Origin: Octopus sinensis
Taxonomy: Eukaryota
Direction of reading: 5' to 3'
Assembly (NCBI RefSeq): GCF_006345805.1
Contig: NW_021824105.1
Location: 1 to 19,556, forward strand
DNA length: 19,556 nucleotides
Below the pieces are notes generated by a model. It had not been told where the DNA came from. It saw nothing but the letters and a program-made list of their open reading frames with translations, and did not search any database. Every line of letters begins with the position of its first letter. Position 1 is the first letter of the stretch. The translations under genes were made by a program, and so were the position numbers. Positions 3,441 to 15,965 of the stretch are shown piece by piece.

Positions 3441-3793
3441 GTGATGGTGCGAAGGAGAGGTTAATAACAACCAAAACAATAACAAAAGTCTCTATCAGAT
3501 GTATCTATCAATTTGGAATCAACAGTATTGACTTTGTGCAGGAAATCGATACTATTTACGTCATGTACGTAATTCTTGTTCTACATCGAATACCGAAACA
3601 ATTCTCATACCAAACTTTTAGGTAAGGCAGCAAGAACAATGTCAGAGCAGAGAACATATAAAATTCAATTCCACTTTTATTAAAGCGAACGGACTTCAAT
3701 GAGGTTGTCGTTCTTCTGCTTGCGCAAGATATTATGTAGCGAAATCGCTAAAAAAACAAAGTACAGTTAACTTGTCTTGAGGAATGAAAAAAT

Positions 3794-3824
3794 CCAACGT
3801 TTCGAACACAATCTTTCTTCAGGG
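3794..3824 (-). ncRNA. Minimal type I hammerhead motif in the inverted Penelope terminal repeat (stems eroded)
   Basis: Minus strand CC-CTGAAGA-AAGATTGTGTTC-GAAAC-GTT-GG. Core intact, palindromic AACGTT stem III, stem I only 2 bp, stem II weak. Confidence 0.55.
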
Positions 3825-3989
3825 TGAAAAGTTGAAAAGAGAGAAATTAACGAGGCACAGCAGAATCTTGGATCCTCAAACTTGAAAAAAAAACTGGCTG
3901 CAACTGATAAGGATCGCAGATCCACGTGAGCTTCAACTATTTTAAAATTGAAGAAGGAAAGATTAATGGAATGAGGAGAAATTTACTAC

Positions 3990-5140
3990 TCTGGGGAAAT
4001 TTATAAACATGTTGGTAATGAAGCTATGGAAGTAGAATGGTCGCCAGTTATGCCATATTATTTGTAGGCCATATTGAAGAGCTAATATTTGCTCAGTAGA
4101 CCCATACCAGAACAATATGGTCGTTATTTCGACGACACTGTCGGCGCCATAACCGTTACCAGATAACAGCTCAACAACTTGATCTCTTTCGCTGATGCCT
4201 TTCTTCCTATCTTGGAATTTATCTCCACGGTATCCGATAGTTCTGTTAGTGATCTAGTTATCTCCATCACAATAAATAGTATCTATATTGCCACCTCTGT
4301 CCACTACAAACCCACTGAGTCCCACTCTGCTTTTATTCTCACCCCCCACAAATTAAATTTTCCATAACTTTCAATTCCTTCACCTTATCCTTCTCTGAAG
4401 CATTGATTTAGATCTTGAATCCAATGCTAAAGAACCTGACAATTCTTCCTGAATCGAGAGTACACCGGATTACTCTTGGACCTGGCAATCTGCCGGGTCC
4501 AGGCAATCATCCGTGCCATTGTTTTCCTACAGTTTTTATGCACATCCACTCTCACTTTTTCTCTCGTCTTCTTAACTCGTCGTCTTCCTATTGAATGATA
4601 AACTCATCTGAAACTTCCATATTCTAATTTCAACAACATAACCTCTCCAGTCTTGCCCGAACTACCTCACATCAATTTTTAAAGAAGATAATATCTTCGG
4701 TAATCTCCAAGAGCGAAGTTCTGCAGCATCGATCTCCACACAACGAGGTACTTTTAAATACGATCATCACCGATCCTACACCTACCCCAACATTTACAAT
4801 ACAACCATCACTGGGCATAAGACACAACATGATATTGCCCAGAACTTGTATAATATATTGTCTAACCTTACATATTGCATCATATGCAAACTATGGGGCG
4901 CCCTTTACATTGAGGAAATAAGTCGACAACTTGTTAATCGCTTTCGGGAGCATATTCAAAGTATACTGCTACGTATATCCAACCAATCTGTGAATGCCCA
5001 CTGTAGTTCTACAGGCCATTCCATGACTCACTTATCAACGTGTATTACTGCGCACCATGTTTCCACATTCTTAACGAAACGGAGGGAACAACGCTTTACA
5101 TGTAAACTCGGTACCATATCACCGACAGGTTTAAATGAAG
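3990..5140 (+). pseudogene. Penelope-type reverse transcriptase C-terminal half + GIY-YIG endonuclease, frameshifted
   Basis: GEIYKHVGNEAM..RMVASYAILFVGHIEE; YGRYFDD; TSVHYKPTESHS; linker GTFKYDHHRSYTYP (decayed Cys motif); SNLTYCIICKLWGALYIEEISRQLVNRFREH..HS..REQRF..KLGTISPTGLN. Confidence 0.9.
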
Positions 5141-5240
5141 TGTTTTTCTTCTTAAACCCTTTCTTATCTTTCAAGCATCATCTCTCCTCGTTTCCCCCTT
5201 CACCTCACTAACGACATTGCCCGCTTTTCCTCATTACATT

Positions 5241-5628
5241 GGAATGGAAGCACTCCGTCGGTTACGACGACGTTGGTTCCGGTTGATCCGAATCAACGGA
5301 ACAGCCTGCTTGTGAAATTAACGTGTAAGTGGCTGAGCACTCCACAGACACGTGTACTCTTAACGCAGTTCTCGGGGATATTCAGCGTGACACAGAGAGT
5401 GACAAGGCCGGCCCTTTGAAATATAGGTACAACAGATACAGGAAGTAAGAGTGAGAGAAAGTTGTGGTGAAAGAGTACAGCAAGGATCACCACCATCCCT
5501 GCCGGAGCCTCGTGGAGCTTTAGGTGTTTTCGCTCAATAAACACTCACAACGCCCGGTCTGGGAATCGAAACCACGATCCTACGACCGCGAGTCCGCTGC
5601 CCTAACCACTGGGCCATTGCGCCTCCAC
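5241..5628 (-). mobile_element. tRNA-derived SINE family C, copy 2, nested in the Penelope-like element
   Basis: 12-bp TSD CCTCATTACATT at 5229-5240 and 5629-5640. Pol III A/B boxes at the right end. Confidence 0.94.
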
Positions 5629-6539
5629 CCTCATTACATTACAATTCTATTCTACCTTCTTACATTTTTTCTCCTCCCGCTTCTTGTTCAGTTATGGCGA
5701 TCTTTCGTTCTCTCGTTCCTCTTCCGTTGCAGCCAATTTTTATACATCATAGTATATAAGCCTCTACTGTATCTCATTAATTATTTTTCTCCTTTAAACT
5801 TTTCCCTCGATCAAGAATTTTGTGTGAAATATCGGGTTTTTAACTCCTCACAGCAAGTTCACTATGCTCTTGTTGTTTTGATATATATATATTTATATAT
5901 ACATAACTATTACACACATACACGCAGGTACACTCACACAAAGAGAATGCACTACAAACTATGCATCATATTAAGATATCCCGTCTGACAAAGAGAAAAA
6001 TATAACGAGACTAGAACAGTCGCAAAACTTCGGAAATTAGCTTATAAATTAACATGTACGTCATAGCAAATATGAGAAATGTAGTCGTATTAGACATAAG
6101 ATAAGGTGATATGTCAGAGGAAAATACATATTTTAAAACTGATGTGTATTATTCAATTTAAACGACAATATTGCATGATTGAAACTTCAACCGTAAATGT
6201 ATGTGTGTATGTGTATTTGTGTATGTATGTATGTGTATCCCCCTCTTTGTTTTAAGAATAGAACTAAGATTTCAGAATATGAAACTCTATAAATAGAAAT
6301 TTTAATTATGAAATTAATCTAATGCCAGGAACATTTAAACAGTTAAAAATCGATACATCTTTGTATCGACTAACGAAAATCAAACCCGAAGACAAAAACT
6401 TAATGATGCAATAGCAATAACAATAAAACATACAAATCTAGCCATTATAAACTCAATGGAAACAGATTCAAATATCAATAACCTTAGAATGTTCAAAGAA
6501 TAATACATGTGGCAGCCACAAAAGTTAGAAAGATATATA

Positions 6540-11073: not shown

Positions 11074-11233
11074 CTCGAAATTTACTTAATTTTCTGTAAA
11101 ATGCCAATCCATTCGACACCTCTACGTTTTTATAAGCGCACACACACACACAGACAGGCAGACAGACAGACAGACAGATACACACACACACACACGCAAA
11201 CATACACACACATTATTCAAAACAGTTTGATCC

Positions 11234-11285
11234 GGATTCCGTGCTACTTCAAGTTTCAAAGCCCTCGTCAGGCTGGTAAGAATCC
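11234..11285 (-). ncRNA. Type I hammerhead motif, left arm of palindrome (core intact, stem II deleted)
   Basis: Minus: GGATTCTTACCAGC-CTGACGA-GGGCTTT-GAAAC-TTGAA-GTA-GCACGGAATCC. Confidence 0.68.
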
Positions 11286-11290
11286 AAATT

Positions 11291-11359
11291 CGGATTCTTA
11301 CCATCCTGACAAGAAAGGCTCCGTTAGGGGCTTCGAAACTTGAAGTAGCACGGAATCCG
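11291..11359 (+). ncRNA. Type I hammerhead motif, right arm of palindrome (stem II intact, G8>A core change)
   Basis: CGGATTCTTACCATC-CTGACAA-GAA AGGCTCC gtta GGGGCTT C-GAAAC-TTGAA-GTA-GCACGGAATCCG. Confidence 0.68.
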
Positions 11360-11593
11360 AATAAAATTATTTTGAAAAATACATGCAACTCCCAATAAAT
11401 GTGTGAGTGCTCTTTATTCTTTATAAACTGTGAATTTTCCTGTCTAGTACTTTCATACATACTCCTTTTGTCTCTGATGACGTAATACCCAGTGTACAGA
11501 CATGCTAGCCTACCATTAGGGATATCCCAGAAACAGCTAATAAATGAGTTGAAATAATCGTCTTGCCTTGGTTTTGATGTCCATTTCCTCTAA

Positions 11594-11713: not shown

Positions 11714-11920
11714 AAACATGAATACACAAAGAGAAAACACAACAACGCGAGGACGTGGAACAAGTATAGTATTATTGGACGTTCAGGAAAGAAGGAAAGA
11801 AGGAGGATTTAACGTTTCGAGCGGAGCTCTTCGTCAGAAACATAGGAAAAGGAAAGATCCAAGTAAGGGAAGACGGAGGGAAAAAAATCGCCAACAATAC
11901 ACACGCGGTCACATTTTGAA
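11714..11920 (-). mobile_element. Short non-coding Penelope-terminal-repeat-like unit carrying a hammerhead, embedded in TA repeats
   Basis: Central HHR motif, pyrimidine-rich flanks on the minus strand, TA microsatellite on both sides. Boundaries approximate. Confidence 0.55.
11807..11841 (-). ncRNA. Minimal type I hammerhead ribozyme (palindromic stem III, GUU site)
   Basis: Minus: GTTT-CTGACGA-A-GAGC tcc GCTC-GAAAC-GTT-AAAT. Confidence 0.75.
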
Positions 11921-13349: not shown

Positions 13350-15945
13350 GAAAGGAAGCGGTTGGAATCTCTCCATGTCCTGATTGATGATACATCTAGT
13401 GCTGGTGTCACAATAAAAACACTGATAATTGTGCAACCTGATAATCGCTTCCTCATATGAGTTACAATGAAAATACATATTATTGTGAATAGCGGTAGCA
13501 ATGAAACTGAAGCTCCTGATGGTGACAGTGTTCCACCCGGCAGTCTCGGAAATACTTGTCCGGCTCCAGCCTGTTGTTATTCGCAATGGATTAGCATACT
13601 CGGCGTAGATGGAACAATGCCGTGGTCATAGAGTGTTACTACCTGAGCAACCCTGTAGACGAAAATAGTGCTCTTATTAGAGGATACCGACAACGTATGT
13701 ATGATCAATGGAAAGAAAGGGGATTGTTTCAACTCACGGAACAGAGATTATGTGGTCAAGCTAGAGCAATACGAAAAAATCGTTGGTTCACAGAAGTAGA
13801 GTTCGAAGTTATCAAAAAAACGGGTCTTGGAAAATAGCAGCAGAGGAAACGATGAAAATATAGTTCTTACTGATAGCAGAATCTCATAGCAGAAAACAGA
13901 GGTGAGATCTCTAATAAACCAGAGAAAAGGAACAGTGATGGCTTTCTCGATGAGAGACATATAAATGGTCTGGAAGACGACAATGAAACTCATGGTGATA
14001 TGACAGATGGGCGAAAGGCAATCTATGACAGAATAAAGGCAAGCTTATAGGAGAACGATAGTGACATTATTTGCAACGTTAAAAAGGTTTATCGGTGGAA
14101 ATTGAACCAAGAAACGAAAAATGTAAATGAAATTCTGAAATACATCAGAACGAAAAACATCACAGACACAAATACTTTGATCAAGATATAGAAATATAAG
14201 GGGGGTGTCAAAAGAAAAGATTCATGGTGGAAAAGAAGAATAGAGATAGGGTTAGATATGCTCTCGAAGGACATTTGTGTGTTAGACTGAAAAGAGAAGG
14301 GAAGCTTAAAAGCGAACAGAAATACAGGTCATTGAACTGTAAATACGATAGTGAAAGAAAGGGCCTGAAATTGGCAATGGAGGAACTGAAACAGCGCCTC
14401 ATCGCAAAGAAAGCAAAGATGGTAAGATACCACCAAAGAATGAAAGGATACCAGCAGAATAGGTTATTTAGAGTAGATCAGAAGAAATTCTACAAAGAAA
14501 TAAATGAAGAGTGAAAAGATAAAATGTTGATACCAGATAACATTGAAAGTCAAAGGTTTTGGAATGACATTTGGAGCAAAGACAAGAACAACAAGAAGGA
14601 TGCTGAAAGGTTGCAAGAACTGAAACAAACAGTAGTCTGTCCAAAACAGACAGAACTAGCAATTTCAGATAGAGAAGTGAAGGAAATCAGCAAAAAATAG
14701 GCAACTGTAAGGCCTCGGGACCAGATGGAGTTCAAGGTTACTGATCAAAAGATTTGGTGAATGTCATACATGAATAGCTGCCCAACTCAACACCTCATTA
14801 AATGCCGACCAAGTAACACCAGAGTGGTTCAAGCACAGTGCTGTGCTTGAAAAACATAGAAAAATGCAATACGGTAGACAATTACAGGCCGATATCCTAC
14901 TTGCCACTTATGTGGAACATTATTGACTAGAATAGTCGCAGAGACAATATACGGATATCTGGTAAAACTGGAGTCCTTCCACACGAGCAGAAAAGTTACA
15001 AGCGTAAGTGCAGAGGTACCAAGGATCAACTCCTGGTAGACAAAACTGTACTTAGAGACTGCAAGAGGAGGAAAAGTAACTTAACCATGTCATAGATAGA
15101 TTATCGTAAGGCATACTATATGATTCCAAGTTCTTGGATTATGAAATGTATGAACCGATTTGGTATTGCATCGAATGTTGAGCGATTGCTTGGAAAATGT
15201 ATGGCGAAGTGGAGGACGGAGCTGACAGCATATGGAAGATGTTTAGGAACAATAGAAATCAGTAGAATAATTTTCAAAGGAGACTGCCCGTCCCCACTGA
15301 TCTTTGTACTATGCATGACACCACTAGCACTGATTCTGAGGAAAGCAAAAGCTGGGTATGTATTCAAGTGCCGTCAACAAAAAGTCAACCACTTGTTATT
15401 CATGGGTGACCACAGACTTTATTGTAAAAATGAATTCCAAGTCAGTTCCCTCGTTGATAGGGTGTATACTTTCAGTGCTGATATCAGAATGGAGTTCGGA
15501 CTGAGAAAGTGTGGTGTGTTAGTCTTGAAGAGAAGCAAAATTAAATGTGTGGACGGGCTAGCGAAACCGTCGGCGGAGGTTAGGAAGCAAATAGAAGAGA
15601 CGGGTTATAAGTACCTGGGGATAATGGAAATGGATAAATTGATAGAGAAAGAAATGACAGGAAAATTTAAAGTGGAGTACTTGCGCGGACTGAGTCTGAT
15701 CCTTAAGTCCAAATTAAATGGACGGAATAAGATTGAAACTATCAACACCTGGGCGGTTTCACTCTTTAGATGTAGAGAAGGGGTAATCGCATGGACAGTA
15801 GAGGAACTAAACAGCTTAGTCAGAAAGACAAGTATCTTGCTGACAAGACATGGGATACTCCACCCAAAAAGTGACACAGACAGACTGTATGTACCAAGAA
15901 AAAGAGGGGGAAGAGGACTGATTGGATGCGAACACAGTATTATAA
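13350..15945 (+). mobile_element. Decayed R4-clade (Dong-like) non-LTR retrotransposon, 3' part (zinc knuckle/endonuclease) missing
   Basis: Single long broken ORF from ~13468, with no APE domain seen before the RT. 5' boundary approximate, directly after (TAA)n. Confidence 0.85.
13468..15945 (+). pseudogene. Non-LTR reverse transcriptase pseudogene
   Basis: [24 protein letters not shown]; YQQNRLF; KASGPDGVQGY; NYRPI; [11 protein letters not shown]; DYRKAY; IFKGDCPSPLIF; HLLFMGD (from FMDD); FGLRKC; YKYLG; RLYVPRKRGGRGL. Many stops and frameshifts. Confidence 0.92.
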
Positions 15946-15965
15946 TAAACACAGTATAATAATAA

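What the first reader, a model, noticed from the sequence alone, without database searches (positions are those of the whole stretch)
11212..11380. Palindrome built from two back-to-back hammerhead ribozymes with complementary defects
Seen: what looks like a foldback MITE is an inverted dimer centred on AATT (11287-11290), and each arm read outward is a type I HHR. The left (minus) arm keeps CUGACGA but lacks 15 nt of stem II. The right (plus) arm keeps a 7-bp stem II but has CUGACAA. The merged sequence, GGAUUCUUACCAGC-CUGACGA-GAAAGGCUCCGUUAGGGGCUUC-GAAAC-UUGAA-GUA^GCACGGAAUCC, has a complete core and a bulged stem I. Known: bulged stem I is typical of tertiary-stabilised type I HHRs; HHRs occur in Penelope terminal repeats and in metazoan retrozymes, which are usually direct tandem arrays. 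Inference: this is either an inverted terminal-repeat junction of a non-autonomous Penelope/retrozyme-like element, or a both-strand self-cleaving hairpin element I cannot assign to a described family.
Basis: partly seen in the sequence, partly recalled or inferred. Interest (0 to 1): 0.8.

Follow-up and report, generated by a model that had tools for sequence, protein, structure and literature searches.

The report
Back-to-back Penelope retroelement ribozyme ends
This palindrome is two decayed, back-to-back end pieces of a Penelope-like jumping gene, each carrying the hammerhead ribozyme motif that such elements are known to have; it is a common leftover in this genome, likely made in one insertion event, and not a new kind of element.

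Summary
The palindrome and both hammerhead (HHR) motifs are really there. The idea of 'complementary defects' is not supported. The feature is one copy of a dispersed family: short inverted arm, long arm, ~60-nt tail, set in microsatellites. Longer copies run upstream through a promoter-like segment and a microsatellite into a GIY-YIG endonuclease and RT frame. In sibling subfamilies the same tail runs downstream into the ORF start. The ORF has the motifs of the Hydra clade of Penelope-like elements (PLEs), whose published HHRs have the same stem III. Head-to-head inverted copies with a one-sided tail are described PLE anatomy. Here 40 of 70 tail-selected copies have them, and all 26 junctions examined differ, so the hairpin is not a self-copying unit or a MITE. 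The HHR covaries between subfamilies but decays like its flanks inside copies. Each window arm has two defects, and the intact palindrome out-folds the ribozyme by ~60 kcal/mol. One new observation: arm 5' ends pile up at the ribozyme's 5' edge (48 of 108) and not at the cut site (2 of 108). This suggests uncleaved, short templates.

The parts
11139..11211 (.). (CA)-type microsatellite flank, the likely insertion target
   Evidence: family flanks
11212..11289 (-). short inverted arm: 5'-truncated pLTR copy running from the 5' edge of HHR stem I (11289) to the inner family end (11212), without tail
11245..11271 (-). HHR core of the minus arm: CUGACGA intact, stem II cut from 22 to 7 nt, C11.1>U, GAAA at 11257-11254, predicted cut between 11245 and 11244
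11288..11289 (.). head-to-head junction; both arms begin at the first A of stem I and share the dinucleotide AT
11288..11380 (+). long arm: 5'-truncated pLTR copy with a type I HHR (core 11306-11312 with G8>A, stem II 11313-11334, GAAA 11335-11338, palindromic stem III 11338-11346, predicted cut after 11347, distal stem I 11288-11297 with 11353-11362)
11381..11413 (+). one-sided PLE 'tail' (about 60 nt in the family; here cut short by an unrelated repeat that starts near 11413)
   Evidence: (loose ends at 11404 and 11413)

Best explanation
The palindrome is a head-to-head pair of 5'-truncated terminal-repeat (pLTR) copies of a Hydra-clade Penelope-like retroelement, each holding that element's hammerhead motif, likely written into a microsatellite in one insertion event and decayed since. 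Shown: the family, its ORF link, the clade motifs, the one-sided tail, the variable junctions and the covariation between subfamilies. Inferred mechanism: the element's GIY-YIG nuclease cuts both target strands. The RT starts at two internal RNA sites about 60 nt apart (inner end and tail end), one on each strand, as reported in vitro for the Anolis PLE. The two cDNAs meet by microhomology. The templates were likely uncleaved RNAs, and many likely began at the ribozyme's 5' edge (a putative transcription start), which would make such mini-palindromes the commonest product. In the parent the HHR would cleave as a stem-III dimer or with protein help; this copy is predicted to be inactive.
For: Family: 79 matches from 40 scored of 238 candidates; 102 exact hits to a 23-nt tail motif, control 0. 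Architecture: 40 of 70 tail-selected copies have an inverted arm within 1.5 kb upstream, 32 of 70 with a span of 260 bp or less, control flanks 0 of 30; by eye, 39 of those 40 inverted arms lack the tail. ORF link: the focal upstream segment continues into a GIY-YIG-like frame in L104/L140 and L141 (tblastn 4e-39). 15 of 29 endonuclease-selected loci (L141-L169) carry an arm within 1.5 kb. The tail runs into the ORF in L250 and L251, with RWK in L251. An inverted, 5'-truncated ORF abuts the focal upstream segment in L106, L253 and L254 (these three are paralogous duplicates). Clade: CxCX5C linker, CxxC before E, CxH after N and no internal CCHH in L159/L170/L174, as defined in PMC8557442 section 11. 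Of 69 homologues of 650 aa or more, 68 have DK[TS], 56 RW[KR] and 61 CxCX5C. File S2 of that paper lists Hydra HHRs with the same stem III, and Penelope-13_HM with an inverted 5'-truncated copy and an HHR on both strands. Covariation: pair 2.1-1.1 is C-G in 29 of 37 focal arms and G-C in 22 of 33 tail-selected arms; distal stem I and stem III show 37 two-sided changes against 18.5 in shuffles, 0 of 500; N7 is free (G34, C33, T14, A6 of 88). Decay: within copies the core is 0.89 conserved against 0.91 for non-core columns. 5' ends: 48 of 108 fall 30-62 nt upstream of the cut and 2 of 108 within 3 nt of it; loss per nt is 0.035 there against 0.007 downstream and 0.004 upstream. 24 of 25 focal copies start no more than 11 nt upstream of stem I. 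The two arms of a copy are more alike than arms of different copies (0.788 against 0.741, 0 of 5000 permutations).
Against: No intact full-length copy of the focal subfamily was found. The tail-to-ORF junction is shown only in sibling subfamilies, and the L104 endonuclease piece gave no tblastn hit (linked by 70-75% DNA identity and by translation). Pfam gave no PLE family for any of 8 fragments. In one search the pair-level measures did not beat the shuffles (406 and 463 of 500), and the two-sided changes come from few events between related subfamilies. The 5'-end calls come from local alignments to 18 reference copies: some are wrong where no matching subfamily was present (L233, L234), and the self-complementary stem I can inflate calls near -50 in about 8 cases. 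Later deletions in palindromes also move apparent ends. The transcription start is inferred from an initiator-like motif (consensus recalled) and was not measured. PMC3846280 proposes self-priming on an antisense template for such head-to-head junctions. No cleavage assay was possible.
Confidence: 0.88

Rival explanations
1. Same parent element, but the inverted arm arises by fold-back self-priming (on an antisense template, or through stem I of the nascent cDNA), and the pile-up at the ribozyme's 5' edge reflects RT release at the structured HHR rather than a transcription start.
For: Proposed for rotifer PLEs in PMC3846280 (passage read). The arms of a copy share variants. Some copies (L024, L048, L191, L216) join exactly through the stem I repeat.
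Against: A fold-back copy of the first cDNA should run on into the tail, yet 39 of 40 inverted arms stop at the inner family end (by eye). PMC11167929 shows both strands cut and extended from two internal start sites that bound the tail. A stall would be expected at the 3' side of the structure, not its 5' edge (inference).
Confidence: 0.3
2. A non-autonomous hairpin element that is copied as a whole and cleaves itself on both strands.
For: Short palindromes are the commonest form (32 of 70); the arms of a copy are alike; one junction type recurs in similar form in several copies.
Against: All 26 junctions differ in sequence, with GAAA boxes 40-158 nt apart. Solo, long-armed and ORF-bearing copies share the same ends. 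Both cores are intact in 1 of 25 pairs. The hairpin folds at -92.9 against -32.3 kcal/mol for a forced HHR fold.
Confidence: 0.04
3. A DNA-transposon MITE or fold-back element whose resemblance to a hammerhead is chance.
For: Long terminal inverted repeats and small size; no Rfam hammerhead hit.
Against: Asymmetric ends, a variable centre, 5'-truncated solo copies and a link to RT and GIY-YIG frames; compensatory changes in stems I and III and a free N7; Rfam also missed 2 of 2 intact copies.
Confidence: 0.02

Closest known systems
Hydra-clade Penelope-like elements (Craig et al. 2021, PMC8557442; e.g. Penelope-13_HM, Hydra-1_Obim)
   Same: C-terminal GIY-YIG without CCHH, CxCX5C linker, CxxC and CxH motifs, RWK; a type I HHR near the end with a palindromic 4-bp stem III around one loop base; (TA)n-type targets; an inverted 5'-truncated copy with the HHR on both strands (Penelope-13_HM); a tail at one end only.
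   Different: The HHR sequence differs from all Hydra rows in File S2 as read, including the octopus Hydra-1_oBim, so this is another family. The focal subfamily has an 8-9-bp bulged stem II closed by G10.1-C11.1 and a 2-bp proximal plus 10-bp distal stem I. The tail is about 60 nt against the 30-40 bp given in the paper.
PLE minimal hammerheads (Cervera and de la Pena 2014, PMC4209133)
   Same: Type I, long helix II, short helix I, palindromic loop III; mostly dispersed single motifs; the paper reports 'dual min-HHRs' 100-700 bp apart on opposite strands in Schistosoma.
   Different: Here the two cores are typically under 100 nt apart, and there is an extra distal stem I.
Poseidon element PAc of Anolis (Frangieh et al. 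2024, PMC11167929)
   Same: Two internal RT start sites bounding the tail; both target strands cut and extended; AT-rich targets; HHR cleavage not needed for insertion.
   Different: Other clade. In PAc the HHR and start sites overlap the ORF start; here they lie in the 5' UTR, with the start codon about 55 nt beyond the tail end.
Metazoan non-LTR retrozymes (bioRxiv 10.64898/2026.07.22.740005; PMC7229834 seen in search listing only)
   Same: Non-coding repeats with a type I HHR, proposed to derive from PLE pLTRs.
   Different: Retrozymes are defined as direct tandem arrays with at least two complete HHRs; this is an inverted pair with no intact HHR.

Membership tests
Type I hammerhead ribozyme (family master) | CUGANGA / GAAA / UH core around three stems | tested here: met
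   19 of 88 arms keep all 12 core positions; column majorities give the full core; N7 is free
Type I hammerhead ribozyme (family master) | Compensatory changes in the stems | tested here: met
   2.1-1.1 C-G 29 of 37 against G-C 22 of 33; 37 two-sided cells against 18.5 shuffled; stem II A:U 34 against C:G 15 of 88. The pair-level counts were not above the shuffles.
Type I hammerhead ribozyme (this copy) | Intact core and stems in at least one arm | tested here: not met
   Plus arm: G8>A and a broken 2.2-1.2 pair. Minus arm: 15-nt deletion and C11.1>U.
Type I hammerhead ribozyme | Self-cleavage at the predicted site | not testable with these tools
   needs an assay
Rfam hammerhead families | Covariance-model match | tested here: not met
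   No hit on the window or on 2 of 2 intact copies
Tertiary-stabilised (canonical) type I HHR | Helix I about 6 bp and helix II about 4 bp with interacting loops | tested here: not met
   Proximal stem I 2 bp, stem II 8-9 bp against the geometry given; a different contact is not excluded
EN+ Penelope-like element | [quoted passage not shown] | tested here: met
   Decayed RT-EN frames; linked upstream for the focal subfamily (L104, L141) and on both sides for siblings
EN+ Penelope-like element | 5' truncation, inverted copy at the 5' end, tail at one end | tested here: met
EN+ Penelope-like element | Complete pLTR-ORF-pLTR copy of the focal subfamily | tested here: inconclusive
   None among the loci fetched; genome searches score only the best 40 candidates
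Hydra clade | CxCX5C linker; CxxC and CxH around E and N; no CCHH in the endonuclease | tested here: met
   L159, L170, L174, L176 against the definition
Hydra clade | RWK and DKT motifs | tested here: inconclusive
   RWK in L251. DKT was not seen in the 10 genomic stretches scanned, which are 5'-truncated; it is present in 68 of 69 long homologues.
Hydra clade | Placement in an RT phylogeny with reference PLEs | not tested
   No named reference proteins were available as tool sequences
Hydra clade | Insertion in (TA)n-type microsatellites | tested here: met
   36 of 50 located tail ends are followed by alternating purine-pyrimidine runs
Non-LTR retrozyme | Direct tandem units, at least two with a complete HHR | tested here: not met
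   Inverted pair here; one direct duplication only (L073/L080/L081, 866-bp unit including flank)
MITE / DNA transposon | Symmetric ends and a fixed interior | tested here: not met
   One-sided tail; 26 of 26 junctions differ
MITE / DNA transposon | Target-site duplication | tested here: inconclusive
   Flanks are microsatellites, and the window's right end is lost to another repeat

The most novel reading that the evidence does not exclude
Miniature ribozyme palindromes are the main product of this PLE. Transcription starts at the ribozyme's first base, the RT initiates about 90 and 150 nt into the same uncleaved RNA on both cut target strands, and runs off the RNA's 5' end. The junctions would then be a fossil map of the transcription start, in vivo support for insertion from uncleaved RNA, and an explanation for 'dual opposite-strand hammerheads' and many MITE-like repeats in invertebrate genomes.
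Probability: 0.4. Interest if true: 0.55.

Novelty: new member of a known kind. Interest (0 to 1): 0.3.

Why it matters
As a sequence feature it is ordinary PLE debris, and it shows how such debris can be misfiled as a MITE. The family is useful for the open question of what PLE hammerheads do and how inverted pLTRs form. It offers a rough 10^2 focal and 10^3 total fossil insertions (25 exact hits / 0.12 and 102 / 0.06), several subfamilies with covarying ribozymes, and an end distribution that avoids the cleavage site and stops at the ribozyme's 5' edge. This turns the in vitro model of PMC11167929 into a genomic prediction that can be tested by 5'-end sequencing and by an insertion assay.

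Tried and rejected
Rfam: no hammerhead hit on the window, the 201-nt region or two intact copies; only miRNA-hairpin look-alikes far below the gathering score. First ORF lead: a shared 800-bp endonuclease-like segment beside L027 and L090. It is another Hydra-like family with its own two 3' ends; none of the 29 further loci (L111-L139) had our upstream segment or arm, so it was rejected as parent. 'Nematis' label: my first guess from recall, replaced after reading the Hydra definition. Pfam on 8 ORF fragments: no PLE family. Whole-HHR covariation on one MAFFT alignment: the sibling cores were misaligned, so only distal stem I and stem III were counted there, and the rest by anchors (37 of 88 and 33 of 70 arms parsed). 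Expression: no RNA holder listed; the three runs laid are contigs and cannot show strand, start or level. Earlier scan findings: none. Literature: five searches; none listed a paper on this family or on miniature head-to-head pLTR pairs as a class, but Repbase/Dfam libraries and subscription journals were not searchable, so the family may already exist under another name. Lunse et al. (PMC5785218) is not held and is known only through the review PMC6765202 (passages). Supplements of bioRxiv 10.64898/2026.07.22.740005 were not seen and may list related pLTRs. The host organism was not tested.

Full report
1. Observation. The sequence holds an inverted repeat at 11212-11380 centred on 11287-11290. 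It folds as one hairpin at -92.9 kcal/mol (z -15.7). Two things were missed. Each arm has a second defect: C11.1>U on the minus arm, and an unpaired 2.2-1.2 position on the plus arm. And the element runs on, on the right only, into a tail at 11381-11413. Rfam finds no hammerhead here, nor in two natural copies with intact cores, so that test is blind to this type.

2. The family. A DNA search of the own genome gave 79 matches from 40 scored of 238 candidates, at 66-93% identity apart from the self match. The first 67 loci reduce to 44 distinct places. They share fixed 3' ends: an inner end, and a tail end about 60 nt further, both usually abutting microsatellites. The 5' side varies. To avoid selecting for palindromes I took copies by an exact 23-nt tail motif (102 hits, control 0) and examined the first 70 listed. 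40 of 70 have an inverted arm within 1.5 kb upstream, 32 of 70 within 260 bp; the control flank had 0 of 30. By eye, 39 of the 40 inverted arms stop at the inner end. In the 26 of 44 loci where both GAAA boxes could be located, all 26 junction sequences differ, with spacings of 40-158 nt. A MITE or a hairpin copied as a unit would not look like this.

3. The parent. Longer copies extend about 230 nt upstream of the ribozyme and then into a microsatellite. In L104 this continues into a frame with the C-terminal signature of a GIY-YIG endonuclease. Searching with it gave 29 further loci, 15 of which carry an arm within 1.5 kb. These mostly belong to sibling subfamilies with the same tail and a shorter stem II. 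Upstream lie RT motifs. In L250 and L251 the tail runs on into the ORF start, with RWK in L251. In L106, L253 and L254 (duplicates of one locus) an inverted, 5'-truncated ORF abuts the focal upstream segment. The linker is CxCX5C, CxxC and CxH flank the conserved E and N, and CCHH is absent: the definition of the Hydra clade (PMC8557442, section 11 read). The best 120 of 464 homologues carry these motifs in most long members, many with PF26215. File S1/S2 of that paper (part 2 of 59 read) lists Hydra ribozymes with the same palindromic stem III and notes an inverted 5'-truncated copy in Penelope-13_HM, with the ribozyme on both strands. The octopus entry there has a different ribozyme sequence, so this family is not that one. 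Limits: no intact full-length copy of the focal subfamily was found, L104 gave no tblastn hit, Pfam named none of 8 fragments, and no tree was built.

4. The ribozyme is real in the lineage and dead in the copies. Among 88 focal arms (hits scoring 40 or more and reaching the ribozyme start, out of 125 hits), column majorities give a complete core with N7 free, and 19 of 88 keep all core positions. Between subfamilies the stems change on both sides: pair 2.1-1.1 (C-G 29 of 37 against G-C 22 of 33), two pairs of distal stem I and one of stem III (37 two-sided cells against 18.5; 80% paired against 19-56% in slid controls; the pair-level counts were not above the shuffles), and one pair of stem II. 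Within copies the core is no better kept than neighbouring columns (0.89 against 0.91), arms differ from the column majority by 16% on average, and G8>A tracks CpG context (13 of 33 against 3 of 34). Only 1 of 25 pairs keeps both cores. The window's defects are therefore ordinary decay. They also could not complement: in a stem-III dimer, the CUGANGA box and stem II come from the same molecule (established dimer geometry; PMC4209133, parts 1-2 of 4 read). A read-through transcript would form the hairpin (-92.9) rather than the ribozyme (-32.3 when forced). The stem lengths fit the PLE-type, dimer-dependent ribozyme and not the tertiary-stabilised form.

5. Mechanism. Known: PLE insertions are 5'-truncated and often carry an inverted truncated copy and a one-sided tail (PMC8557442, passages; PMC3846280, passages; PMC8969392, passages). 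Dual opposite-strand minimal hammerheads were reported in 2014. The Anolis PLE protein cuts and extends both target strands, starts RT at two internal sites that bound the tail, and does not need ribozyme cleavage (PMC11167929, parts 1-2 of 4 read). Inferred here: one cDNA starts at the tail end and the other at the inner end, on opposite strands, and they join by microhomology (AT at 11288-11289 in this copy). The arms of a copy share variants more than chance, which fits one template or one master. New observation: of 108 mapped arm 5' ends, 48 lie 30-62 nt upstream of the cut and only 2 at the cut; loss per base is five times that downstream and ten times that upstream. In the focal subfamily, 24 of 25 independently selected copies start within 11 nt of the stem I edge or inside it. 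That edge matches an initiator-like motif with CCAAT-, E-box- and YY1-like motifs upstream (consensus recalled, not tested). The D. virilis element has its promoter and start in the pLTR (PMC2377424, passages). My preferred reading is run-off from a transcript that starts there, with RT initiating in the 5' UTR. RT release at the structure and fold-back priming remain possible, and the end calls have the artefacts named above.

6. Verdict. Identity as a decayed head-to-head pLTR pair of a Hydra-clade PLE: about 0.9. Twin initiation: about 0.65. Run-off at a transcription start: about 0.4. Self-copying both-strand ribozyme element: about 0.04. It is a new family of a known kind in a known arrangement; interest 0.3, carried by the end-distribution result.

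Noticed in passing
window 3700-5900: A second, unrelated decayed PLE-like element: RT- and GIY-YIG-like frames on + (4642-5211), an inverted terminal copy with a minimal hammerhead motif on - (3791-3822), interrupted by a SINE-like repeat at about 5243-5627. Clade not tested; no Pfam or P0004 hit.
   Followed up: partly
window 11810-11837 (-): A third minimal hammerhead motif from another frequent repeat family, also seen in the flanks of L010, L013, L190, L201 and L239.
   Followed up: no
L192, L195, L202, L215, L228, L232 and others: A sibling subfamily appears to carry C instead of U at core position 4 (14 of 33 parsed tail-selected arms), a natural core variant whose activity is unknown.
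   Followed up: partly
window 11245 and 11248: One contig of run X1 (only guessed to be RNA, depth 5, another organism label) has T>C at both places, that is A>G on the minus strand inside the hairpin, one of them at the cleavage-site base. It could be A-to-I editing or plain divergence; there is no matched DNA.
   Followed up: partly
L108-L139: Another Hydra-like PLE family with two 3' ends about 170 nt apart and frequent inverted pairs; I did not identify a canonical hammerhead in it.
   Followed up: partly
L006:210-463: A head-to-head palindrome of the sibling subfamily lies 1 kb from a palindrome of the focal subfamily.
   Followed up: yes
L073/L080/L081 (G000 C2:38765157-38766825): An inverted arm followed by two identical direct copies 866 bp apart; a recent tandem duplication or an assembly duplication.
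   Followed up: no
L084:1599-2021: Two copies in tail-to-tail orientation, the rare arrangement.
   Followed up: no
window 13600-15960: Decayed LINE-type reverse transcriptase (open frame 15096-15959) ending near an (TAA)n run.
   Followed up: no
window 11413-11540: A different high-copy repeat abuts and truncates the tail (depth rise and loose ends).
   Followed up: no
L068:1769-1938: A separate 170-bp palindromic, MITE-like insert upstream of the element.
   Followed up: no
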